DNA from: a virus
Taxonomy: Duplodnaviria > Caudoviricetes
Strand: one strand, 5' to 3'
Length of the DNA stretch: 56,916 bases
IMG/VR virus record: IMGVR_UViG_3300006754_000019
Location: 1 to 56,916 of that record
The notes below the pieces were generated by a model. The model did not search any database. It had not been told where the DNA came from and saw only the letters and a list, made by a program, of their open reading frames with translations. The position numbers and the translations under genes are program-made. This document shows positions 37,062 to 45,756 of this stretch, one piece after another (position 1 is the first letter of the stretch; each line of letters starts with the position of its first letter).

Positions 37062-38141
37062 ATGCATAAAGAAAAACCTAGTTATTGGTCTATCCTCCCT
37101 GCTGATGTTAGATACTGTAAAAAGATAACCGCCAATGCTAAGATACTATATACAGAAATCACAGCACTAAGTAGTAAGGAAGGGTATTGTTGGGCAACCA
37201 ACAAATACTTTGCAGACCTCTATAAAGTATCAGAAGTATCAATTTCCACTTGGGTATCCTCCCTAGTAGATCAAAACTATATCACTTCCGAAATGTCCAA
37301 ATCACCTACTGGTTCAAGAAGAAAATTAAGGACAAATACTGCACAGGGAGGTCATAAAGAAAACTTTAAGGGGGGTCATAAAGAAAACTTTAACCGTAGT
37401 AATACAAGCTCTAGTATACTTACTAAAGTAAGTAACAGTGATTCTGAAGAATCACTAAAGAAACTTTTTGGTTATCGTTGTGTGAGGGAATGGAATAAGT
37501 TTGATTATACTAGATCTCATAAATCAGAAACGATCATCAAGAGGGTTGATAAGTATATGAAGCAGTTATTAAAAGGAACTTTCTTTAATGACAAAGAGGT
37601 TAATAAGGATTTTATGAAGTACCATTATATAAGTACCAATGGGAGAAAGTATACAAAAGAGGAATTATTAAAAGGAATACAAAACACTTCTTTATTATTC
37701 AAAGGAGGGTATTCCAATCTTAAAAACTTACCAAAGGGTTTAGATACCCTTATCTACAATGAGTCATCAGGAACAAGCATGTTCTTATCTGCGTTGTTCA
37801 ACCCTCCTAAACTACTATCAAAGAAGTTTGTTAAAGATTCATACCCAAAGATAACCGAACTGTTTATGAATAATGGAATAGAGGAGAGTAGTAGATTCAA
37901 AATAGTAAAAGGAATTGCTTCTTTAGTTGAATACCAAGGGAGGATAAACTGTAGGATTCCAAAAATGAAAAGACTGTTTGGAACTCCCTACCTATTATGT
38001 AAGACATATCTTGAATGGTTGAATGCACAGGGGTGGGTTAATAAAGTGGAACTAGGCTATATCAAAGCCGATGGGAAAATGTTCAAGAAGTTTATAGTGG
38101 ACATGGAGGAAGAATGTTTCGGGTATTCTTTAATAAAGTAA
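37062..38141 (+). CDS. Phage replication initiator (N-terminal wHTH)
   Basis: LPADVRY...AKILY.EI..L....GYCWA.N.YFA.LY motif; start reassigned to MHKEKP. Confidence 0.85.
   Translation: MHKEKPSYWSILPADVRYCKKITANAKILYTEITALSSKEGYCWATNKYFADLYKVSEVSISTWVSSLVDQNYITSEMSKSPTGSRRKLRTNTAQGGHKENFKGGHKENFNRSNTSSSILTKVSNSDSEESLKKLFGYRCVREWNKFDYTRSHKSETIIKRVDKYMKQLLKGTFFNDKEVNKDFMKYHYISTNGRKYTKEELLKGIQNTSLLFKGGYSNLKNLPKGLDTLIYNESSGTSMFLSALFNPPKLLSKKFVKDSYPKITELFMNNGIEESSRFKIVKGIASLVEYQGRINCRIPKMKRLFGTPYLLCKTYLEWLNAQGWVNKVELGYIKADGKMFKKFIVDMEEECFGYSLIK
37350..37393 (+). repeat. Putative origin iterons GGTCATAAAGAAAACTTTAA x2 (24-bp period)
   Basis: Exact tandem copies inside the initiator gene, as in lambdoid origins. 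Confidence 0.7.
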
Positions 38142-38150
38142 GGAGGATAA

Positions 38151-39638
38151 ATGAACGCTAAGATAGAAAAGAAGATTGTCACAGGGATGATAGTCAGTGA
38201 GGAATTCCTTAAAGGGATAGTACAAATCTACAGACCCCTCCAAGTTCCCTTTGCCAAAGAAGTAGCTGGTTGGTGCTTAGAACACTTCAACGAATACAGG
38301 AAACCCCCTCTAAAGCATATAGAAGATATCTTCATAGCCCACAAGGAGGAGCTATCTGAAGAACAAGAAGATTTAATAGGGGACTTCCTACAACACATCT
38401 CAGAAGAATACGAAGAAGCAGAGACTTTCAATGTACAGTATATTTTAGATACGGCAGAGAAGTACTTCAGGACTATAACCCTCCAAGAACTGAACAAGAG
38501 GCTATCTGCCACCATCACCAAAGGAAATATCAACAAGGGGGAGGCTTTAATAAAAGACTTTGAAAGAGTTGTCCGACCACAGACCAAAGGAGTGAATCCC
38601 TTTGACGTAGAGGTGATACAGAATGCCTTTACAGAAGATCACACCAACAACCTATTCAGGTTTCCCGATGTACTGGGGAACATAGTAGGAAACTTTGAAA
38701 GGGAACATCTTGTGTCCTTTGTGGGAGTGTCCAGTATAGGAAAGTCGTGGTGGCTTATGTGGATGGCTATGTTAGGGTTGTCAGAAGGATACAGGGTTGT
38801 GTATGTGAGCCTAGAAATGTCTGAGAAGCAAATGGTAAAGAGGATACATCAATTTATTAACGCATGTCCTACGAAGGAGTGTGACGTAATTTTACTTCCA
38901 GTTTTTGATTGTACGAAGAATCAGAAAGACATTTGTGATAGAAAGGAAAGGAGGAGCAAATGTGGTATCCAAGATGAAGATGGAAATGACATGGACTTTC
39001 ACCAAGCTAAGAAAGGAGGGTATAAGCCCTGTACCGAATGCACTGAAGACTACAAGCAGGGTCTATGGCATAAGGTAGTAAAGAGGAAAGTGTTGTCTGA
39101 ACAGATGGTGTTGGAGAAGAACAAGCTTGTCTACGGTAGTTTAATAAAGAAGAATAGATTTAAGTTCATCAAGTATCCCTCTAAAGGGGCTACGATGTCT
39201 GAGCTACGTTCCCATTTATTGAACATAGAACAGTATGAGGGATTCATCCCTGATATTATAGTTACCGACATGGCTGATAAGTTTTCAGCAGAGAATACCA
39301 GACAGGATACCAGACACCAGATAGATGAAGTCTGGAGGGCACACAAGTCCCTAGCACAGGAAAGAAAATGTTTGGTAGTAACGGCAAGTCAATCTAACAC
39401 GATGAGGACAGAAAAGGATATACGACAAGGAGATTGGGCTGAATCAGTGGGTAAGATTCAAGAGTCGGACATATCTTTTGCCCTCAATCAGAAACCCGAA
39501 GAAAAGTCCCAAGGGCTGATGAGGGTATCTGTCCTAAAGCAAAGGGATGATGACTTTGACTTGACTACAGAAGTAAATGTATTGATGTCATACAAAATCG
39601 GCAGACCGTATTTGAAGTCTTGTATGAGGGGAAAATAA
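38151..39638 (+). CDS. dnaB: Replicative DnaB-like helicase
   Basis: G.SSIGKS, SLEM, IIVTD..D, TASQ, K.RD motifs; Cys-rich insertion. Confidence 0.85.
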   Translation: MNAKIEKKIVTGMIVSEEFLKGIVQIYRPLQVPFAKEVAGWCLEHFNEYRKPPLKHIEDIFIAHKEELSEEQEDLIGDFLQHISEEYEEAETFNVQYILDTAEKYFRTITLQELNKRLSATITKGNINKGEALIKDFERVVRPQTKGVNPFDVEVIQNAFTEDHTNNLFRFPDVLGNIVGNFEREHLVSFVGVSSIGKSWWLMWMAMLGLSEGYRVVYVSLEMSEKQMVKRIHQFINACPTKECDVILLPVFDCTKNQKDICDRKERRSKCGIQDEDGNDMDFHQAKKGGYKPCTECTEDYKQGLWHKVVKRKVLSEQMVLEKNKLVYGSLIKKNRFKFIKYPSKGATMSELRSHLLNIEQYEGFIPDIIVTDMADKFSAENTRQDTRHQIDEVWRAHKSLAQERKCLVVTASQSNTMRTEKDIRQGDWAESVGKIQESDISFALNQKPEEKSQGLMRVSVLKQRDDDFDLTTEVNVLMSYKIGRPYLKSCMRGK

Positions 39639-39651
39639 AGATTAATTATTT

Positions 39652-39687
39652 TTCAAAAATGCAGGAGTTTTTCTAATACTGGAGTAG
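39652..39687 (+). promoter_or_regulatory. Putative phage middle promoter TTCAAAAAT-N10-TTCTAATACTGnAGTAG
   Basis: Same motif and spacing at 48057-48092; both copies are intergenic at operon starts. Confidence 0.65.
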
Positions 39688-39808
39688 CGGAAGTATTTAT
39701 AACCTTAACCAAAGGAGGAGAACAAATGGGAAAAAGAACCAATTATGGATTTATGGGTTGAAGAATAAAGTTAATTTGAAGTAGAACCCTTAACCAAAGG
39801 AGAGTAAA

Positions 39809-40363
39809 ATGACTAAAGAAGAATCGAAGTTAAAACAAGAAGATTTAGAATTTGCAGTAGATGAATTAAATGAAGTACTGTTTGGAGGGGAAGAAGAAAT
39901 TGGCAAGGCTTTTGCTGATGAAATGGTTGACGAGTTGAAGGAGGCTTCCGAAGAAATAGACAAAGCTGATTCGTTTTCACAAAGAACAGCTGATGTGTTA
40001 GAGGTCTTAGGTGTAAAGGTTGACTTCAAGATAAAGCCTGAAAAGAAAAAGAAGACTAAGGCTAAGAAGGAGTCTAAACCAGCTAAGAAGGAGTCTAAAC
40101 CAACTAAGAAAGAAAAGAAGGCTAAGAAGGAGAAGAAAGCCAAGAAGGAAAAAGGCAAGACTAGGGTAAAGGCTATGCATGAAGTCCTGAAGAAGTGCAA
40201 GAAGGGCAAGTCCTACGAAGACATAGTGGAGGAAGTCCATGATGCATTAGATGGTACTTGTGCTATCAACAGTGTCAAGGGGTCATTGAGGTTTGCCCTG
40301 TCAGTGCTTGTACAGTTTGACGTAATAGAAGTGAAGGACAGGAAGTACCGCTTTATAGGTTAA
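39809..40363 (+). CDS. Acidic/Lys-rich DNA-binding-like protein
   Basis: Acidic N-terminus, AKKESKP repeats, wHTH-like C-terminus. Confidence 0.6.
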   Translation: MTKEESKLKQEDLEFAVDELNEVLFGGEEEIGKAFADEMVDELKEASEEIDKADSFSQRTADVLEVLGVKVDFKIKPEKKKKTKAKKESKPAKKESKPTKKEKKAKKEKKAKKEKGKTRVKAMHEVLKKCKKGKSYEDIVEEVHDALDGTCAINSVKGSLRFALSVLVQFDVIEVKDRKYRFIG

Positions 40364-40364
40364 T

Positions 40365-41105
40365 ATGAAAAAGTTAATATACAAAGAGGGATTAGTGGTC
40401 AGGGAGCCGATTGGGATAACCAACGGTTCTCTGACACTTACCAAATGCACAGTACAACACGCTAGGAAGGGAGTGGTAAAGAATCACTACTCTAGGAAAG
40501 TATCTAGGAACAGTTTTTTATCTTTCGCTGTCAACAAGACAGAGGGATATCTTCAATTAGGCTACGGCATGAATCCAACAAAGAAACATACCATCTCAAA
40601 ATATATTACATTAGACAACCATTGTGAATTTGATCGCATGTGGTTGTCAGACTCCCTACCTAAGTTCAGCGAAAGCCAAGTGATTGCCCTCCTATTGAGT
40701 TACATAAAGCAGATATATCCCAACATACATTTTATAATTACCTATGCTGATGAGGGTGTAGGAAATACTGGTGTGATCTACAAAGCCACCAATGCAATAT
40801 CCCTCGGTAAGCACAAGACGAAGTTCTACATCCTCCCTAATGGGGAGAGAACACATGCCGTATCTTTATGGCATAAGTATAAGACAAGCACAAAGGAATT
40901 TCTGGACAGCAAGGGCATCAAGTCACAGGACACATATCAACATAGATTCCTCTATATATTAAATAAACGATTGCGGAAGAAGTATCAAGAGGAGATACGC
41001 CAGCTTCCAGCTGGAGGGGCAGGTTCGATTCCTGCCTTCCGCTCCAAACATTCCCCTCCTAAGGGAGGGGGTGGTGGCAGATCAAGGTCTGGGAGGGTAA
41101 AATGA
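40365..41105 (+). CDS. Mom-family (GNAT-fold) DNA adenine modification enzyme 1
   Basis: NHYS, EFDRMW......SES, ITYAD...G.TG.IYKATN, HRFLY motifs. Confidence 0.82.
   Translation: MKKLIYKEGLVVREPIGITNGSLTLTKCTVQHARKGVVKNHYSRKVSRNSFLSFAVNKTEGYLQLGYGMNPTKKHTISKYITLDNHCEFDRMWLSDSLPKFSESQVIALLLSYIKQIYPNIHFIITYADEGVGNTGVIYKATNAISLGKHKTKFYILPNGERTHAVSLWHKYKTSTKEFLDSKGIKSQDTYQHRFLYILNKRLRKKYQEEIRQLPAGGAGSIPAFRSKHSPPKGGGGGRSRSGRVK
40973..41046 (+). tRNA. Non-canonical tRNA-Gly(UCC)-like element inside the Mom-like gene
   Basis: GCGGAAG/CTTCCGC acceptor stem + T + CCA; GTAT/ATAC D stem; CCAGC-TTCCA-GCTGG anticodon arm; GCAGG-TTCGATT-CCTGC T arm. Confidence 0.8.
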
Positions 41106-42076
41106 ACATACTAACATTTTCACCAAGTACTAGGAAGGTTTGGACAGATAAGAGGGCAGTCAATCCAGCGTACTTCCTTATGGCTACATTGGTAGCGAAC
41201 CTATCGGAGAAGTATAATGTATATACTATAGATGAATCCTTCAACCCTGTACAGAAGATGAAGAAGTACAACGGAGAACATATTGATTGTGTTATCTCCA
41301 TCGGGGCTATCTATACTCTATCAGATACTAAGAAGAAGTTGAAGTTTGACCCGAACTACAGTAGACATAAGAGGATATTCAAGATAGCAAAGATAACTAA
41401 TGAAGTGTTTGACAAGTACGACCCTCTACATATCAACCTATGTGTGGATGTTAGTAAGTGGTCACAGGAACTAACGGAGATGTTTGGAAAAGAACCAGAT
41501 ACATTTGTTACTGAACAGGAAATGAAATGGCAGACCTTCCTCTATCTATACTGCCATAGACGTACTATATGTAATAACAAAGGGGATGAGTTCTTCTATG
41601 CAGGAGGGGCTAAGAATAGGGTTGCTAGGTTCTTAGAACTGACAAAGGGAATAGACAAGCTGAAGACGATAGCTGGTGGAGGATGGAAAGATGTATTGTC
41701 TAAGGAAGATCGTTATTGGATGCTTGGTTACATTCCGTTCTCCCAATGTCTTGCTATGTCTAGATTTGCAAAGTGGAGTATTGTATTCCAAACTGAACAA
41801 GGCAACATAGAGAATTGGATAACAGGGAGGTTGTTTATGAATCTAGCTACTAAAATGATAGGTTTTGTAGATAAGGAATATGACAAAGAGGGAATGTATG
41901 TTAGGAGGGATTCTCTTTTAAGAGTGTCTGATTCAGATGAAATCAATGCTAAAATAAGGATGTTTAAATATGGTGAATTAATATTAGAGCAAGAAAAGAT
42001 GATTAAATCTCACTGGTTAGAGTGGGAGACCTATACTAAACCTTTTGAAAAGAAGATAAGAGGACTACTGAAATGA
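41102..42076 (+). CDS. T4 beta-glucosyltransferase-like GT-B enzyme
   Basis: YAGG..NR, G.IP, NWITGR, VDKEYD match by eye the T4 BGT motifs YGG..R, GKIP, NFITLR, IDEEFD. Confidence 0.72.
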   Translation: MNILTFSPSTRKVWTDKRAVNPAYFLMATLVANLSEKYNVYTIDESFNPVQKMKKYNGEHIDCVISIGAIYTLSDTKKKLKFDPNYSRHKRIFKIAKITNEVFDKYDPLHINLCVDVSKWSQELTEMFGKEPDTFVTEQEMKWQTFLYLYCHRRTICNNKGDEFFYAGGAKNRVARFLELTKGIDKLKTIAGGGWKDVLSKEDRYWMLGYIPFSQCLAMSRFAKWSIVFQTEQGNIENWITGRLFMNLATKMIGFVDKEYDKEGMYVRRDSLLRVSDSDEINAKIRMFKYGELILEQEKMIKSHWLEWETYTKPFEKKIRGLLK

Positions 42077-42822
42077 AACCAACCTTTATCATAGCAGGAG
42101 GGGCAAGATGTGGAACTACTTTCTTTGCAGACTGTTTGAACCAACATCCAGACATACACCTCCCTACCCCATTCATACCAGAACCTAAAGTATTCACTGA
42201 CCCATTGATGGAGGATGAAGAATACTTAGACCATTATGAATTTATATATGAGCAAAATCCTTTCATAACCCCTGACACAGTGAATGGGGAGAAGACAGTC
42301 AACTATTTAGAAAATCCACTTATACCCTTTACTATTAGGAGGGTGCTGCCTGATGTTAAGCTGTTCTTCTGTTTACGTAATCCAGTAGACAGGGCTTATT
42401 CTGGATGGTGTTGGAGTACTATGAATGGTCATGAAACAAATACATTCAAGGAGGCTATTCATTTAGAACTGACTACAGATAGATGGAAGACAATACCTAG
42501 AGGGATGCATTCACAACCATTCAACTATCTACATAGAAGTATGTATGATGTAATGTTAGAACCTTACTTTAAAGCCTTTAGGAGGGAACAGATACATATT
42601 ATTATTTTTGAAGAACTGATACAGAATATTCATACTACAATTAATAATGTGTATAATATACTGAGAGTCCATGAGCAACATGTGAAGTCTAACTTTAAGA
42701 ATGAAACAGAGGGATTCCCCCCTATGGCTAATGGGTGGAGGCAGTTTTTAAGAGGTTACTTTTATAACAGTATTCAGAATCTAAGTGAATACGTCAACGT
42801 AGATATCTGGGAGGGGAAATGA
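42073..42822 (+). CDS. PAPS-dependent sulfotransferase (Sulfotransfer_1 type)
   Basis: FIIAGGARCGTT, QHPDI, EP..F, GEKT.NYL, LRNPVDRAYS motifs. Confidence 0.9.
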   Translation: MKPTFIIAGGARCGTTFFADCLNQHPDIHLPTPFIPEPKVFTDPLMEDEEYLDHYEFIYEQNPFITPDTVNGEKTVNYLENPLIPFTIRRVLPDVKLFFCLRNPVDRAYSGWCWSTMNGHETNTFKEAIHLELTTDRWKTIPRGMHSQPFNYLHRSMYDVMLEPYFKAFRREQIHIIIFEELIQNIHTTINNVYNILRVHEQHVKSNFKNETEGFPPMANGWRQFLRGYFYNSIQNLSEYVNVDIWEGK

Positions 42823-42885
42823 AAGGGGAATGTTATAAATGCAAAACCCCTGATGTAAAAGTTTGGAATACTTTAAGGAGAAAGC

Positions 42886-43608
42886 ATGGAAATAAAAAAT
42901 ATAAACAACAGGGAGGTTAAAGATTGGTTGTTAGATAAACACTATGCTAAAAGAAGATGTAGTATCTCCTATAGCTATGGATTAATTCATGAAGACAACA
43001 TTATAGGAATAGTAACATATGGAATCCCTCCTTCACCACAAGTAGGGAGAGGGTTTCTAGGGGAAAGGCATAGAACTAAAGTAATAGAGTTGAACAGACT
43101 TTGTATTAATGATGATGCACCTAAAAATTCAGCTTCATTCTTAGTGGGAGGAACTTTAAAAAAACTAATTGATTGGGCTGTTGTGTCCTATGCTGATGGA
43201 AAGATGGGACATGTTGGATATATATACCAAGCAACAAACTTTATATACTGTGGGAGTGCTACATCACATGATTGTGAATATTTAATAGATGGGAAATGGA
43301 TACACCCTAAGACCCTGACTACTAAAGGAATAACATCCCCTTCACAATGGGCAAAAGAGAACAACATACAAAAGAGGACTCCTTCACCTAAACATAGATA
43401 CATTTATTTTGTTAACAAGAAACTGAGGAAGTATTTAAAATATGATATACTTCCATACCCTAAAGGAGAAACAAAAAGATATGAGTCAAAGACAATAAAA
43501 AGAAGGAGGAAAGAATGGGGTTTATTTGACAAAGAACAATTACAATTAAAACATAAAAGGAGGAAGAATGAACAGAATAGAATTACTAAGGGCAGTAGAG
43601 AAGATTAA
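42886..43608 (+). CDS. Mom-family (GNAT-fold) DNA modification enzyme 2
   Basis: KHYAKR, ELNRL, KNSASFLV, VSYAD...GHVGYIYQATNF.Y.G, KHRYIY motifs. Confidence 0.85.
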   Translation: MEIKNINNREVKDWLLDKHYAKRRCSISYSYGLIHEDNIIGIVTYGIPPSPQVGRGFLGERHRTKVIELNRLCINDDAPKNSASFLVGGTLKKLIDWAVVSYADGKMGHVGYIYQATNFIYCGSATSHDCEYLIDGKWIHPKTLTTKGITSPSQWAKENNIQKRTPSPKHRYIYFVNKKLRKYLKYDILPYPKGETKRYESKTIKRRRKEWGLFDKEQLQLKHKRRKNEQNRITKGSRED

Positions 43609-44578
43609 ACCAGCAATGAGTAGTGGATTGGCAGAACAAGACAATCTAATTATGTTTGAACAATATCACGAAGGAGGGAAAGTCAAGTCATTCAACAACG
43701 AGATAATGATGATTAGCCCGATGGTAGAGGGACTAAAGTTTGATGGTGCTGTACCAGCTAATGAAATGTTGACCCTACTACAGAAGATGTATGATAAGAA
43801 TGTCAAGGTTACAGAGAAGGGAGATGAACTAAGGATATCAGGAAAGACCACAAAGGCTGTATTGAAAAAGGCTGAACTAGAAATGCCTGAAGTAACCCTC
43901 CCTAACAAGTTTGCTTCTCTACCTAGTAACTTTACCGAGGGTTTAAGGCATTGTAGATTTACTGTAGCTGAATCTGGTAACGTACTACACAATATATTAA
44001 TAGAGGGGGATAAGATAATATCCAGTGACAACTATAGGATAACAGAATATACATTGGAGAAAGATACGTTCAAAAAGTCACAACTTATCCCTGCACCTAT
44101 TTGTATGACGTTGATCTCCTTTACCCCTACCTCCTTTGCATCTAATAAGAGTTGGTTGTTCTTTAAGAATGAAGATGGGGCTATCTTATGTATACGGAGG
44201 GTAGAAGAACAGCGAAAGTTCCCTGACATACAAGCTATACTAAAACAGAAGTTCAAGGGCACGAAGGTTACCCTCCCTGAAGACTTAAAACAAGCATTGG
44301 AAAGGGCAAAGATACTATCAGCAGAGGACTTGGTGACAGGGAATAGTACTGTAGATGTTACCATAGAAAAGGACAAGGTTCTATGTCAAGGAGAATGTGC
44401 TATGGGGAGGATAGACGAAGAAATAAAGGTAGAATATTCAGGAAAGAAAATCTCCTTTAGTATCGTGCCTGATTTCCTCTATCAGATATTAAACAATACT
44501 GATAAGATGACTGTGGGAGAAGTAAGTCTTAAATTTAAAACTAAAAACTTTCAACATATAGTACAACTAATATCATGA
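43568..44578 (+). CDS. dnaN: DNA polymerase sliding clamp (beta-like)
   Basis: 336 aa, three-domain pattern; SSDNYRI (cf. ATDGHRL), FPD, L..ALER motifs. Confidence 0.75.
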   Translation: MNRIELLRAVEKIKPAMSSGLAEQDNLIMFEQYHEGGKVKSFNNEIMMISPMVEGLKFDGAVPANEMLTLLQKMYDKNVKVTEKGDELRISGKTTKAVLKKAELEMPEVTLPNKFASLPSNFTEGLRHCRFTVAESGNVLHNILIEGDKIISSDNYRITEYTLEKDTFKKSQLIPAPICMTLISFTPTSFASNKSWLFFKNEDGAILCIRRVEEQRKFPDIQAILKQKFKGTKVTLPEDLKQALERAKILSAEDLVTGNSTVDVTIEKDKVLCQGECAMGRIDEEIKVEYSGKKISFSIVPDFLYQILNNTDKMTVGEVSLKFKTKNFQHIVQLIS

Positions 44579-45756
44579 AGGGATTCTTTAAAAAAGAAAA
44601 TCTAAAGAAGAGTGCCTCTAACTGTTCAAAATGTAAACTACATAAGGAATGTAATACTCCTTACATAGGGGTGGCTGGAGAAGGCAAGAAGTCAATTCTT
44701 ATCATAAACGAATCGCCCGAGAAAGATAAGAAGGGTAAGTTACTACAGGGGGAGTCTATAGAAATACTAAGGGAGGCGTTTAACGAATATGGTATTGATA
44801 TAGATGTTGATTGTTGGGTAACTAATGCCGTATCCTGTCGCCCTCCTAAGGGCAGAGCACCGCACAAGCGAGAAGTTAAGATGTGTAATCCTAGGGTACA
44901 GAAGGTAGTAGAGGAGTTAAAACCTAAGATGATATTCTTATTGGGGAGTTCAGCTTTAGATAGTTTCCTGATGGATAAGATCAAAGGTTCTAGTGGAGGG
45001 ATAGATAAGTGGAGGGGTTTTGTAATACCTGACCAAGTAACAAAGGCTTGGATTATCCCTCTTTATCATCCTACATTTGTTAGGGATTTTAAAAAGAAAA
45101 AGAAGATTGTACCTAAGATATTTGAACAGGACATAGGGAGGGGTCTTAGGAAAATCAAAGAACGCTGTCATGTATTCAATCATAAGGTAGAGGTACTTAG
45201 CCAAGACAATGCTAGACACATGCTGAAGACCCTATTGGACAACCCACCACCAAAGATGTTGGCTTTTGATTATGAAACCACTGGAATTAAACCGTACAAG
45301 GAAGGACATGAGATAATATGTGTGGGAGTGTGTTGTTCAGATATAGCTTATGTATTCCTATTGGATGATAAGAGGGTATTAAGTTATTGGAAGAAGATTT
45401 TAAGGACTAGGAGTATTCCCAAGACAGCACAGAATATTAAATTTGAACATGTATGGAGTAGAGTGATTCTAGGGACTATAGTTAAAGGATGGAAGCATGA
45501 TACTATGCAAGCCTCCCACATCATAGACAATCGTAAAGGGATTACTGGATTGAAGTTTCAGTCTTACATTAGATTTGGTCAGGGAGATTATTCTAGTCAT
45601 CTAGATAAATACATCAAGACTACTGGGGAGGAAGAATTTAATACCATTAGAGATGCCCCTATGAATGAAGTGTATAAATACTGTGCTATGGATGCGATCT
45701 TAGAATATAAATTAGCTATACTACAAATGGAAGGGGAGGGAATATTTAATGAATAA
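44575..45756 (+). CDS. Family-4 UDG-like domain fused to 3'-5' exonuclease (N-terminal part of split family A polymerase)
   Basis: CSKCKLH, TNAVSCRPP, YHP (UDG4); AFDYETTG, QNIKFE, DTM, YCAMDA (Exo I-III). Confidence 0.88.
   Translation: MKGFFKKENLKKSASNCSKCKLHKECNTPYIGVAGEGKKSILIINESPEKDKKGKLLQGESIEILREAFNEYGIDIDVDCWVTNAVSCRPPKGRAPHKREVKMCNPRVQKVVEELKPKMIFLLGSSALDSFLMDKIKGSSGGIDKWRGFVIPDQVTKAWIIPLYHPTFVRDFKKKKKIVPKIFEQDIGRGLRKIKERCHVFNHKVEVLSQDNARHMLKTLLDNPPPKMLAFDYETTGIKPYKEGHEIICVGVCCSDIAYVFLLDDKRVLSYWKKILRTRSIPKTAQNIKFEHVWSRVILGTIVKGWKHDTMQASHIIDNRKGITGLKFQSYIRFGQGDYSSHLDKYIKTTGEEEFNTIRDAPMNEVYKYCAMDAILEYKLAILQMEGEGIFNE

What the first reader, a model, noticed from the sequence alone, without database searches (positions are those of the whole stretch)
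40973..41046. tRNA-Gly-like cloverleaf hidden in the 3' end of a Mom-like gene: candidate dedicated glycyl donor for DNA modification
Seen: a 74-nt fold with a perfect acceptor stem GCGGAAG/CTTCCGC, discriminator U, encoded CCA, a D stem with GG in the loop, a 4-nt variable loop and a TTCGATT T loop. It begins where the Mom fold ends (HRFLYILNKRL) and is read through as the protein tail. It keeps the bacterial GlyRS identity elements (G1-C72, C2-G71, G3-C70, U73, CC in the anticodon). It departs from translational tRNAs in three ways: A instead of U8, an anticodon arm 2 nt short (5 bp + 5-nt loop, or 4 bp + 7-nt loop), and A51-U63 in the T stem. Known: A51-U63 weakens EF-Tu binding, as in staphylococcal non-proteinogenic tRNA-Gly used by FemXAB. 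From recall, not verified here: Mu Mom has been reported to use glycyl-tRNA as its donor. Inference: the phage makes a private tRNA-Gly that is charged but kept out of translation and feeds its Mom enzymes, encoded inside the enzyme's own mRNA.
Basis: partly seen in the sequence, partly recalled or inferred. Interest (0 to 1): 0.92.

Follow-up and report, generated by a model that had tools for sequence, protein, structure and literature searches.

The report
Phage tRNA-Gly mimic inside Mom gene
A marine phage carries, written into the end of a DNA-modifying enzyme gene, a conserved but oddly built glycine-tRNA look-alike that most likely hands glycine to that enzyme rather than to the ribosome.

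Summary
ARAGORN calls tRNA-Gly(UCC) at exactly 40973-41046. The Rfam tRNA model gives 41.9 bits against a cut-off of 29.

The element belongs to an undescribed family of phage tRNA-Gly-like RNAs.
- A covariance model built only from other loci scores the window at 77.6 bits. Ordinary tRNAs score at most 50.6 bits.
- I collected 78 copies, 58 of them distinct. In these, 96.4% of cells are paired and 16 of 23 pairs carry double changes.
- The D-loop and T-loop covary without exception.
- U precedes G1 in 55 of 58.
- The glycine identity nucleotides are kept: G1-C72, C2-G71, U73, C35, C36.
- The core is not canonical: A8, a C14-G21 pair and a paired 32-38.

The family sits in or beside Mom genes.
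- In virus records picked by RNA pattern, 17 of 18 hold Mom.
- In short metagenome contigs, 15 of 59 hold Mom.
- In control loci, 0 of 178 hold Mom.

Mu Mom uses Gly-tRNAGly (PMC13219725). The best reading, at about 0.58, is a dedicated non-translational glycyl carrier. Processing, charging and use by Mom are inferred, not shown.

The parts
40973..41046 (+). tRNA-Gly-like RNA element (74 nt). Layout: acceptor 5' strand 40973-40979; A8 A9 40980-40981; D arm 40982-40998; position 26 at 40999; anticodon arm 41000-41014 with loop UUCCA at 41005-41009; variable loop 41015-41018; T arm 41019-41035; acceptor 3' strand 41036-41042; U73 at 41043; CCA 41044-41046.
   Evidence: ARAGORN. Rfam tRNA 41.9 bits. 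Family model R1 77.6 bits. Four compensated pair changes against L001/L002. Family covariation.
40365..41105 (+). Mom paralog 1 (246 aa). Its last ~44 codons are read through the RNA element and the 59 nt behind it. Its stop overlaps the start of the next gene (ATGA).
   Evidence: Pfam PF25680 E 2.6e-43, residues 23-215. PHROG 1384. 30.8% identity to Mu Mom. R111, S124 and D149 of Mu are conserved. The frame and the ATGA overlap are kept in L001/L002 despite an 18-nt indel.
41053..41070 (+). 7-bp G+C hairpin 7 nt behind the CCA. It is an 18-nt insertion relative to L001/L002. Function unknown.
   Evidence: Alignment. Fold in context. No terminator-like T run.
41102..42076 (+). 324-aa protein, translationally coupled to Mom1. 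It is a GT-B glycosyltransferase look-alike (T4 beta-glucosyltransferase-like). This is a lead only.
   Evidence: No Pfam, PHROG or PDB sequence hit. Atlas features 0.97 and TM 0.64-0.69 to T4-Gluco-transf / Glyco_trans clusters.
42073..42822 (+). Sulfotransferase-domain protein.
   Evidence: Pfam PF00685 E 1.6e-12 and PF13469 E 3.9e-11.
42886..43608 (+). Mom paralog 2 (240 aa), without an embedded RNA element.
   Evidence: Pfam PF25680 E 1e-45. Catalytic residues conserved. The R1 model finds only one element in the window.

Best explanation
The 74-nt stretch is a selected RNA gene. It is the window's copy of a so far undescribed family of phage tRNA-Gly-like RNAs that travel with Mom-type DNA glycyl-transferases.

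Proposed mechanism:
1. The element is transcribed as part of the Mom operon mRNA.
2. It folds into an L-shaped tRNA-like body.
3. It is cut out: RNase P cleaves between U-1 and G1, and the 3' end is trimmed to the encoded CCA. In relatives that encode C-N-A instead, the end would need repair.
4. The host GlyRS charges it with glycine through G1-C72, C2-G71, U73, C35 and C36.
5. Its non-canonical core (A8, C14-G21) and its shortened or closed anticodon arm make it a poor substrate for the ribosome.
6. It therefore serves as a private glycyl donor for Mom1 and Mom2. These enzymes transfer glycine to N6 of adenine in the phage DNA without draining the host's translational Gly-tRNA.

The 5' ~40 nt also encode the authentic C-terminal residues of Mom1, so the stretch is dual-coding. 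Translation of a transcript and excision of the RNA from it would then be mutually exclusive.

Shown here: the fold, its conservation and covariation, the tertiary covariation, the conserved U-1, the identity nucleotides, and the linkage to Mom genes.
Inferred: processing, glycylation, exclusion from translation, and donation to Mom.
For: (1) Real RNA.
- ARAGORN and Rfam both call it.
- Against L001/L002 (82% Mom identity), the 74 nt carry 10 differences. Eight of them are four compensated pairs (41000/41014, 41003/41011, 41020/41034, 41021/41033). One is at position 34 (U to A). One is in the variable loop. None breaks a stem.
- Both alleles occur in marine DNA runs.

(2) Family.
- Model R1, built from 7 other loci, finds the element in the window and in 10 of the 14 closest Mom loci. 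It finds it in none of 66 more distant Mom loci.
- All 78 collected copies score 72.3-92.1 bits. Ordinary tRNAs score at most 46.7 bits and at most 50.6 bits.

(3) Covariation over 58 distinct sequences.
- 96.4% of 1332 cells are paired, against 70.6 +/- 0.8 in shuffles (0 of 500 reach it).
- With the 3' partners slid by 1-3 columns, 37.5-52.9% are paired.
- 355 cells carry a double change, against 95 +/- 10.5.
- 16 of 23 pairs carry double changes.

(4) Tertiary covariation without exception.
- Position 18 with 55: A with G 45 times, G with U 13 times.
- Position 54 with 58: G/G 41, U/A 16, U/U 1.
- G19 and C56 are each kept in 56 of 58.

(5) U at -1 in 55 of 58, where background T is 31%. 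This holds in Mom loci (23 of 25) and in other loci (32 of 33). It fits RNase P cleavage; the U(-1) preference of bacterial RNase P is recalled, not from a call.

(6) Glycine identity.
- G1-C72 55 of 58, C2-G71 58 of 58, U73 53 of 58.
- C35 and C36 9 of 9 in the sequences found through the protein rather than through the RNA pattern.
- The identity set comes from PMC9976931 (passage read).

(7) Not a normal decoder.
- A8 13 of 13 in sequences not constrained by the search pattern.
- The C14-G21 pair replaces A14/A21.
- 32-38 is Watson-Crick in 58 of 58, with 4 pair types.
- Position 34 is U in 36 and A in 22, and never G or C.
- 19 of 19 ordinary phage tRNA-Gly have U8, A14, GG and a UUCRA T loop.
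- ARAGORN sees 3 of 59 metagenome copies. Rfam tRNA sees 0 of 10.

(8) Linkage to Mom.
- Pattern-selected virus records: 9 of 9 and 8 of 9 hold Mom. It is adjacent in 15 and 11.3-11.5 kb away in 2.
- Metagenome contigs: 15 of 59.
- Controls: 0 of 58 non-cloverleaf pattern loci and 0 of 120 cellular-genome loci.
- The element's position relative to Mom varies: embedded, between paralogs, or just upstream. That argues for a trans-acting partner.

(9) Biochemistry in print: Mu Mom transfers glycine from Gly-tRNAGly to dA (PMC13219725).

(10) Both window Moms keep R111, S124 and D149.
Against: - There is no expression, processing or charging data. No RNA run is listed for this phage.
- 44 of 59 metagenome copies have no Mom in their contig (median 2.7 kb, but up to 9.8 kb of flank). 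They sit in two other contexts: upstream of an Hsp20-like gene and upstream of an AAA ATPase. One 29.6-kb virus record holds the element but no Mom.
- Mu Mom works with all three host tRNA-Gly isoacceptors, and the authors think it reads mainly the acceptor end (PMC13219725 passages; Discussion). A private donor is therefore not required.
- The window's copy keeps GG and a canonical T loop, so it is the most tRNA-like member of the family.
- An open frame spans the whole element in 26 of 32 Mom-linked loci. Translation would unfold the RNA.
- Only about 10 of 58 encode CCA.
- One of five covariation measures does not exceed shuffles: further pair types 46 against 45.6 (256 of 500).
- The metagenome search pattern fixes positions 8-11, 13-17, the 3' strand of the D stem, U33 and C35-A37. 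Their invariance in 49 of 58 sequences is therefore circular.
Confidence: 0.58

Rival explanations
1. A cis-acting tRNA mimic in the Mom operon mRNA. The fold would be a processing, stability or regulatory signal. Examples: an RNase P/Z cut that uncouples Mom1 from the downstream genes; a site where Mom or GlyRS binds its own message; or a 3' tRNA-like end. It would not be a glycyl donor.
For: - It lies inside the transcript and mostly inside an open frame (26 of 32 Mom-linked loci).
- No promoter or terminator excess lies around it.
- In the window a hairpin and the next gene's Shine-Dalgarno sequence lie just behind it.
- mom is known to be under tight translational control in Mu: the record annotates Com as a translational regulator of Mom.
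Against: - A mere processing signal would not need C35, C36, U73 and G1-C72, or an anticodon-loop sequence kept across 58 sequences.
- 44 of 59 metagenome copies are not in or next to a Mom ORF. Several are intergenic.
- The element's position relative to Mom varies, and it is 11 kb away in two records.
Confidence: 0.14
2. A glycyl (or other aminoacyl) carrier or tRNA-like cofactor for a process other than Mom. The frequent Mom neighbourhood would reflect one lineage's gene order rather than a functional pair.
For: - 44 of 59 metagenome copies and 1 of 18 virus records lack Mom in the DNA held.
- Recurrent non-Mom contexts exist: 9 loci upstream of an Hsp20-like gene and 8 upstream of an AAA ATPase.
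- The nearest cultured relatives of those neighbouring genes are large phages.
Against: - Mom is in 17 of 18 pattern-selected virus records, against 0 of 178 control loci.
- Contigs without Mom are short.
- L137 and L143 carry an element identical to that of two records whose Mom lies 11.3-11.5 kb away, beyond those contigs' ends.
- No other aminoacyl-tRNA-dependent enzyme was seen next to the element, though I did not run domain searches on those neighbours.
Confidence: 0.13
3. A working, if unusual, decoding tRNA-Gly. The phage would bring it to supplement GGA/GGG reading, or to replace a host tRNA-Gly that a defence nuclease cleaves.
For: - ARAGORN and Rfam call the window's copy a tRNA-Gly.
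- It has a canonical T loop, GG, U33, A37 and an encoded CCA.
- Phage tRNAs that evade host nucleases are known (PMC11464382; search listing only).
Against: - The anticodon arm is 15 nt instead of 17 in the window.
- 32-38 is a covarying Watson-Crick pair family-wide.
- A8 and C14-G21 replace the universal U8/A14/A21. All three universal features are present in 19 of 19 ordinary phage tRNA-Gly.
- Position 34 flips between U and A in relatives with 82% identical Mom.
- 45 of 58 lack G18 and U55.
- It is the only tRNA in the record, and only 1 of 59 loci holds another tRNA.
- It lies inside an ORF.
Confidence: 0.1
4. A chance cloverleaf, a decaying tRNA pseudogene, or an attP-type remnant of a host tRNA gene.
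For: The 3' 25 nt resemble ordinary tRNA-Gly genes. The pattern hit 13 ordinary tRNA-Gly loci in phage tRNA arrays.
Against: - R1 E-value of 3.6e-17.
- Compensated changes and tertiary covariation.
- The full cloverleaf is present, not a 3' half.
- It lies in a replication module. I ran no domain search for an integrase across the whole window.
- 0 of 120 pattern loci in cellular genomes hold it.
Confidence: 0.02

Closest known systems
Non-proteogenic tRNA-Gly isoacceptors of Staphylococcus aureus and S. epidermidis, the glycyl donors for FemXAB/FmhB in peptidoglycan synthesis
   Same: Both are tRNA-Gly(UCC) bodies charged by the normal GlyRS but diverted from translation to a GNAT-fold aminoacyl-transferase. 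Shared oddities, from PMC7826273 (passages read):
- The T-loop triplet is UGC/UGU instead of UUC. Here G55 occurs in 45 of 58, with loops such as GGCAGUU and UGCGAUU.
- The anticodon stem is 6 bp with a 5-nt loop.
- There are changes at D-loop position 18/19.
   Different: - Virus-encoded rather than cellular.
- The presumed acceptor is DNA adenine, not lipid II.
- It has A8 and a C14-G21 pair.
- The weak T-stem signature (A49-U65, U50-A64, A51-U63) is not conserved here.
- It is often written inside a protein-coding frame.
- Function is untested.
Phage Mu Mom with host Gly-tRNAGly (PMC13219725)
   Same: Same enzyme family: Pfam PF25680, 30.8% identity, with R111, S124 and D149 kept. The same co-substrate chemistry is expected.
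   Different: - Mu encodes no tRNA-like element next to mom: R1 with filters off gives nothing above 7 bits.
- Mu Mom uses any host isoacceptor.
- The paper does not mention phage-encoded or Mom-linked tRNAs: 'tRNA-like' 0 and 'neighborhood' 0 occurrences, and I read the Discussion. Its supplements were not seen.
Ordinary phage-encoded tRNAs
   Same: Cloverleaf, phage-borne, and a similar 3' half to phage tRNA-Gly genes.
   Different: - Ordinary ones sit in tRNA arrays and keep U8, A14, GG, UUCRA and a 7-nt anticodon loop (19 of 19).
- They score at most 50.6 bits on R1.
tRNA-like structures in messenger or genomic RNAs (plant-virus 3' TLS, mascRNA-type processing signals). Recalled, from no call.
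   Same: A tRNA-shaped fold embedded in a longer coding transcript, possibly processed by the tRNA enzymes and possibly aminoacylated.
   Different: Here the acceptor stem is a plain 7-bp helix and the cloverleaf is complete with glycine identity nucleotides. The host is bacterial. The fold overlaps the coding sequence itself.

Membership tests
Canonical elongator tRNA (Rfam RF00005 / translation-competent tRNA-Gly) | Cloverleaf detected by tRNA finders above threshold | tested here: met
   ARAGORN tRNA-Gly(tcc). RF00005 41.9 bits against 29. But 0 of 10 other family members are hit at E<=1, and ARAGORN sees 3 of 59.
Canonical elongator tRNA (Rfam RF00005 / translation-competent tRNA-Gly) | U8 with A14 and A21 (core triple) | tested here: not met
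   A8, and a C14-G21 Watson-Crick pair, in the window and in 58 of 58. At positions free of the search pattern, A8 is 13 of 13. Ordinary phage tRNA-Gly have U8 and A14 in 19 of 19.
Canonical elongator tRNA (Rfam RF00005 / translation-competent tRNA-Gly) | Anticodon arm of 17 nt: 5-bp stem and 7-nt loop with an unpaired 32-38 | tested here: not met
   The window arm is 15 nt. In the family the arm is 17 nt, but 32-38 is Watson-Crick in 58 of 58 and covaries: AU 35, CG 14, UA 7, GC 2.
Canonical elongator tRNA (Rfam RF00005 / translation-competent tRNA-Gly) | G18 G19 in the D loop and U54 U55 C56 ... A58 in the T loop | tested here: met
   Met in the window and in 13 of 58. In 45 of 58 it is replaced by A18 with G55, and in 41 of 58 by G54 with G58.
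Canonical elongator tRNA (Rfam RF00005 / translation-competent tRNA-Gly) | Binds EF-Tu and decodes on the ribosome | not testable with these tools
   Needs biochemistry.
Substrates of bacterial GlyRS | U73, G1-C72, C2-G71, C35, C36 (PMC9976931, glycine identity passage) | tested here: met
   All are present in the window. In the family: G1-C72 55 of 58, C2-G71 58 of 58, U73 53 of 58. C35 and C36 are 9 of 9 in protein-selected sequences. Three members have a 1-72 mismatch.
Substrates of bacterial GlyRS | Actually glycylated | not testable with these tools
   Needs a charging assay.
Non-proteogenic tRNA-Gly (staphylococcal type) | T-loop UGY instead of UUC | tested here: not met
   The window has UUC. 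The family majority has G at 55 (45 of 58). The feature is taken from PMC7826273.
Non-proteogenic tRNA-Gly (staphylococcal type) | Weak EF-Tu T stem: A49-U65, U50-A64, A51-U63 | tested here: not met
   The window has G49-C65, C50-G64, A51-U63. Family pairs 49-65, 50-64 and 51-63 vary freely.
Non-proteogenic tRNA-Gly (staphylococcal type) | Genetic and functional pairing with an aminoacyl-tRNA-dependent GNAT-fold transferase | tested here: inconclusive
   Genomic linkage to Mom is strong: 17 of 18 virus records and 15 of 59 short contigs, against 0 of 178 controls. The functional pairing is untested.
Mom family (Pfam PF25680), for the host ORF | Profile match above cut-off, with the catalytic R111 and S124 of Mu Mom | tested here: met
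   148.5 and 156.4 bits against a cut-off of 27.1. R111, S124 and D149 are invariant in the alignment with Mu Mom; R151 is not kept.
attP / integration-site tRNA remnant | 3' part of a host tRNA gene next to an integrase, identical to the host copy | tested here: not met
   The full cloverleaf is present, with compensated divergence between relatives. It lies in a replication module. 0 of 120 cellular pattern loci hold it.

The most novel reading that the evidence does not exclude
Phages that modify their DNA with Mom-type enzymes have evolved their own non-translational glycyl carrier RNA. It is a tRNA-Gly derivative with a rebuilt core, invisible to tRNA finders. It is charged by the host GlyRS but withheld from the ribosome. 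In many lineages, including this one, it is written on top of the enzyme's own C-terminal codons. One transcript would then yield either full-length enzyme or its co-substrate. This would be the first virus-encoded dedicated aminoacyl carrier, and the first known for DNA modification.
Probability: 0.5. Interest if true: 0.92.

Novelty: new variant of a known kind. Interest (0 to 1): 0.86.

Why it matters
The co-substrate of Mom was only recently identified as host Gly-tRNAGly. The published discussion treats it as a resource scavenged from the host. A conserved, phage-encoded, non-canonical tRNA-Gly that travels with Mom genes would change that picture in four ways:
- Some phages would supply the carrier themselves. 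That would shield translation and perhaps tune the modification.
- It would be a natural example of a tRNA body that stays orthogonal to the ribosome but is still charged by a native synthetase. That is of interest for tRNA engineering.
- It would be a clear case of overlapping protein and RNA coding.
- It shows that a whole class of tRNA-derived RNAs escapes ARAGORN and Rfam, and that many database 'Mom' C-termini are translations of an RNA gene.

The idea can be tested directly with the published Mom assay.

Tried and rejected
Searches that found nothing or could not run:
- The Rfam gathering search of the whole window found nothing. It was superseded.
- RNA evidence: no RNA holder is listed for this stretch. 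The single read-laying run used four DNA contig runs. It showed only that the window-type and L001-type alleles co-occur.
- Cultured phages: blastn of the window element and of a marine-type element against 50,697 records gave no match.
- R1 over the whole records of Melnitz, PX29, MT835576, PMBT69, pAEv1818, LR756508, Mel-JY01 and Mosig, and over the Mu mom locus, found no family member. The best hits were ordinary tRNAs at 46-50.6 bits.
- Asking whole metagenome records for Mom was not possible because the records are not held. I used an HMM iterated on the held loci instead.

Analyses that did not settle the question:
- The promoter and terminator scan showed no excess over shuffles.
- The non-Mom marine contexts could not be resolved to genome level. 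Their neighbouring genes resemble those of large phages that lack the element.
- The window holds no recognisable GlyRS, CCA-adding enzyme or RNase among the ORFs scanned.
- No structure or complex job was sent, because the tools fold proteins, not RNA.

Readings rejected:
- An attP remnant, a chance fold or a pseudogene, all contradicted by the covariation.
- The A51-U63 / EF-Tu argument, because the pair is not conserved.

Literature. Nothing on Mom-linked or phage-encoded non-decoding tRNA-Gly came up in four full-text searches:
- Mom / glycyl-tRNA / bacteriophage Mu.
- Mom + tRNA-like + phage + DNA modification.
- momylation / Mom-like / tRNA gene / aminoacyl-tRNA / DNA hypermodification.
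- phage-encoded tRNA / non-canonical tRNA / tRNA-like / anticodon loop / viral tRNA / glycine.
Full report
THE OBSERVATION

The window is a whole IMG/VR virus record of 56,916 bp, estimated 75% complete. Its DNA is held by marine metagenome runs.

- a perfect 7-bp acceptor stem;
- A8 and A9;
- a D arm with GG in the loop;
- an anticodon arm of only 15 nt (5 bp plus the loop UUCCA);
- a 4-nt variable loop;
- a T arm with loop UUCGAUU;
- U73 and an encoded CCA.

ARAGORN calls tRNA-Gly(tcc) at the same coordinates, and it is the only tRNA in the record. The Rfam tRNA model gives 41.9 bits against a gathering score of 29. A whole-window gathering search missed it because of its speed filters. The fold is more stable than 199 of 200 shuffles. 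It stands out as a G+C peak of 0.50-0.51, against 0.29-0.45 in the other 200-nt windows of 38000-45000.

The ORF 40365-41105 is a Mom-family protein (Pfam PF25680, E 2.6e-43). It reads straight through the element. Its stop overlaps the start of the next gene.

CLOSE RELATIVES

Two IMG/VR contigs (L001 and L002) encode a Mom that is 82% identical. They carry the element at the same place.

Within the 74 nt there are 10 differences:
- Eight form four compensated pairs: 41000 with 41014 and 41003 with 41011 in the anticodon stem, and 41020 with 41034 and 41021 with 41033 in the T stem.
- One changes position 34 from U to A.
- One lies in the variable loop.
- No stem pair is broken.

The amino acids encoded there change freely: Q to H, A to D, G to E, G to R, A to E, A to S. 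So the RNA is the constrained reading in that part.

The frame nevertheless stays open. It survives an in-frame 18-nt indel behind the element, and it ends in the same ATGA overlap. Both tails are Arg/Gly-rich. That argues that translation through the element is also real.

Contigs of four DNA runs from marine metagenomes show both alleles.

A FAMILY

Many of the 120 best Mom1 homolog clusters have odd conserved C-terminal tails. I printed the DNA behind 25 Mom loci. It showed the same cloverleaf in contigs whose Mom is only about 50-60% identical, and ARAGORN does not see them.

I built a covariance model, R1, from seven of these, without the window or L001. On those seven, 95.0% of cells pair, against 70.0% in shuffles. 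13 of 23 pairs carry changes on both sides. No shuffle out of 500 reaches any of the five measures.

R1 results:
- It finds the window's element at 77.6 bits, E 3.6e-17.
- It hits 10 of the 14 closest Mom loci and none of the 66 more distant ones.
- Ordinary phage tRNAs, tRNA-Gly included, score at most 46.7 bits. Those of a 484-kb phage score at most 50.6 bits.

I then searched by RNA pattern alone:

| Collection | Pattern hits | Family members |
|---|---|---|
| IMG/VR | 19 and 13 | 9 and 9 |

The family is therefore viral, mostly marine or aquatic, and large.

ANATOMY OF THE FAMILY

The 78 copies give 58 distinct sequences (alignment A6).

Secondary structure:
- 96.4% of 1332 cells pair, against 70.6 +/- 0.8 in shuffles (0 of 500 reach it).
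- With the 3' partners slid by 1-3 columns, 37.5-52.9% pair.
- 355 cells carry a double change, against 95 +/- 10.5.
- 16 of 23 pairs carry double changes (4 of 500 shuffles reach that).
- One measure, the number of further pair types, does not exceed shuffles: 46 against 45.6.

Consensus:
- a 7-bp acceptor stem in which 7-66 is mostly a G.A mismatch (43 of 58 unpaired);
- A8 and A9;
- a 5-bp D stem whose fifth pair, C14-G21, replaces the universal A14/A21, with a 6-nt loop;
- a 6-bp anticodon stem whose last pair is 32-38 (AU 35, CG 14, UA 7, GC 2), leaving a 5-nt loop U-(U/A)-C-C-A;
- a 4-nt variable loop;
- a 5-bp T stem.

Tertiary contacts covary without exception:
- A18 goes with G55 (45 sequences), or G18 with U55 (13).
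- G54 goes with G58 (41), or U54 with A58 (16).
- G19 and C56 are each kept in 56 of 58.

So the RNA keeps an L-shaped elbow but builds it differently in most members. The window belongs to the minority with the canonical elbow. Together with L001, it is the only lineage whose anticodon stem is one pair shorter.

U precedes G1 in 55 of 58, where background T is 31%. This holds in Mom-linked and in other contexts alike. It is what a bacterial RNase P site looks like; that preference is recalled, not from a call.

Behind U73 the family has C-N-A: C in 50, then A 27 / U 20 / C 11, then A in 54 of 58. CCA is encoded in only about 10 of 58. I cannot explain this.

A caveat on circularity. The metagenome pattern fixes positions 8-11, 13-17, the 3' strand of the D stem, U33 and C35-A37. 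Their invariance is therefore circular for 49 of the 58. Independent support comes from two sets:
- The 9 distinct sequences found through the protein: C35, C36 and A37 in 9 of 9.
- Those 9 plus 4 from a pattern that leaves 8-9 free: A8 in 13 of 13.
The acceptor stem, the discriminator, the 32-38 pair, the T arm, the loops' variable positions and the flanks were all free.

As a control, 19 of 19 distinct ordinary phage tRNA-Gly have U8, A14, GG and a UUCRA T loop.

LINKAGE TO MOM

In pattern-selected IMG/VR records, Mom is present in 9 of 9 and in 8 of 9 (L005, L008 and L356 lie on contigs already known).
- It is adjacent in 15.
- It lies 11.3-11.5 kb away on the same strand in two.
- The exception is a 29.6-kb fragment estimated 17% complete.
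- Three pattern hits that are not cloverleaves have no Mom.

In the metagenome set, 15 of 59 element loci hold a Mom ORF by an HMM iterated on the held loci, and 12 by tblastn. The controls are 0 of 58 non-cloverleaf pattern loci and 0 of 120 cellular loci. The element loci are also the shorter ones: median 2.7 kb against 6.2 kb.

The element's place varies:
- It is read through at the end of an upstream Mom in 17 loci.
- It lies in an open frame that runs from one Mom into the next or into a long extension in 5 loci.
- It lies just upstream of a Mom in 4 loci (L113, L116, L176, L188) and in L101.
- The Mom ORF stops inside it in 4 loci.
G1 falls on codon position 1 in most loci, and on position 3 in the window and eight others. 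So no single protein reading explains the conservation.

Against the link, 44 of 59 metagenome copies have no Mom in the contig. Two other contexts recur: upstream of an Hsp20-like gene (9 loci) and upstream of an AAA ATPase (8 loci). Two of these contigs carry an element identical to that of the records whose Mom lies 11 kb away. Contig length therefore explains some of these cases. I could not resolve the rest.

DUAL CODING

I aligned Mom1 with Mu Mom and with the window's second Mom. Mom1 residues 203-215 are encoded by the element's acceptor 5' strand, D arm and the first half of the anticodon arm. They correspond to the genuine C-terminal segment of the family. Mu Mom ends 10 residues after the aligned proline.

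The first ~40 nt serve both readings.

At least 37 of the 120 best homolog clusters in the protein collection carry tails that look like translations of the element. This is my regex, and it is an undercount.

CONTEXT IN THE WINDOW

The element lies in the replication module. The gene order is: primase, HTH protein, DnaB-type helicase, a Lys-rich protein, Mom1 with the element, a GT-B glycosyltransferase look-alike, a sulfotransferase, Mom2, sliding clamp, UDG plus exonuclease, family-A polymerase, clamp loader, RecA, SbcCD-like proteins.
- No promoter or terminator excess surrounds the element.
- No synthetase, CCA-adding enzyme or RNase was recognised among the ORFs scanned.

HOW IT MOST LIKELY WORKS

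Mu Mom transfers glycine from Gly-tRNAGly to N6 of adenine in dsDNA. It needs the terminal riboadenosine. It accepts all three E. coli isoacceptors but not Gly-tRNAAla. Its authors suggest that it reads mainly the acceptor end (PMC13219725: abstract, Discussion and passages).

Bacterial glycine identity rests on U73, G1-C72, C2-G71, C35 and C36 (PMC9976931, passage). All are kept here. The features that the ribosome and EF-Tu rely on are altered.

The closest precedent is the staphylococcal non-proteogenic tRNA-Gly. It has UGY instead of UUC in the T loop and a 6-bp/5-nt anticodon arm. It forms no complex with EF-Tu, and it feeds a GNAT-fold transferase (PMC7826273, passages).

I therefore read the element as a private glycyl carrier. 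It would be excised from the Mom operon transcript, charged by the host GlyRS, and used by Mom1 and Mom2. I put this at about 0.58.

Shown: the fold, covariation, tertiary covariation, U-1, the identity nucleotides and the linkage.
Inferred: every biochemical step.

RIVALS
- A cis-acting tRNA mimic for processing or regulation (0.14).
- A carrier for something other than Mom (0.13).
- An unusual decoding or nuclease-resistant tRNA-Gly (0.10).
- Chance, pseudogene or attP remnant (0.02).
The evidence for and against each is in the fields above.

NOVELTY

Nothing like it turned up in four full-text searches, in the Mom paper, or in a survey of jumbo-phage Mom genes (PMC7824862, passages). Supplements could not be seen.

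Rfam has no family for it beyond the generic tRNA model, which misses 10 of 10 other members tested.

It is a new variant of a known kind, the non-proteogenic tRNA. It differs in being virus-borne, aimed at DNA modification and overlapping a coding sequence.

LIMITS
- There is no RNA evidence of any kind.
- Copies are not deduplicated across collections.
- The sequences are related, so shuffle controls overstate independence.
- Genome-level co-occurrence with Mom is unresolved for the largest marine group.

Noticed in passing
window 41102-43608: Between the two Mom paralogs lie a GT-B / T4 beta-glucosyltransferase-like protein (an Atlas lead only) and a sulfotransferase-domain protein, all inside the replication module. 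This looks like a multi-step DNA hypermodification cluster that goes beyond plain momylation.
   Followed up: partly
window 41053-41070: A 7-bp G+C hairpin lies 7 nt behind the CCA. It is an 18-nt insertion relative to L001/L002. Its C-rich arm could also pair with the GGGAGGG Shine-Dalgarno sequence of the next gene (41090-41096).
   Followed up: partly
family alignment A6, columns 73-76: Behind U73 the family keeps C-N-A (C 50, then A 27 / U 20 / C 11, then A 54 of 58). CCA is encoded in only about 10 of 58. The conservation of positions 74 and 76 without 75 is unexplained.
   Followed up: partly
L108/L150 3283-4929; L029 2689-4254; L028 3765-5315; L180 278-3106: A single open frame runs from one Mom domain through the RNA element into the next Mom domain, or into a long extension (943 codons in L180). 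This could be a fused two-Mom protein with an RNA-coded linker, or it could be chance.
   Followed up: no
L375 1501-1574 (Methylophilales phage Melnitz MZ577097.1 68570-68643): ARAGORN calls tRNA-Trp(cca) inside an annotated hypothetical CDS, about 930 nt upstream of that phage's Mom-like gene. It scores 46 bits on R1, so it is not a member of this family.
   Followed up: partly
L045, L046, L051, L053, L056 (about 1.1-2.4 kb from the Mom match, opposite strand): ARAGORN calls a tRNA with anticodon CTA (listed as Pyl, so suppressor-like) near more distant Mom genes.
   Followed up: no
proteins P0001-P0120: At least 37 of the 120 best Mom1 homolog clusters end in tails that look like translations of the RNA element. 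The last positions of the Pfam Mom profile match such residues in the window's Mom1 (residues 203-215).
   Followed up: partly
window 39809-40363: A Lys-rich 184-aa protein with tandem KKESKP / KKEKKA repeats lies directly upstream of Mom1. It has no Pfam or PHROG family.
   Followed up: no
window 1-56916: The whole-window Rfam search at gathering threshold returned no match. Yet the tRNA scores 41.9 bits, above the cut-off of 29, when searched in a short stretch. Large-window searches can therefore miss such elements.
   Followed up: yes
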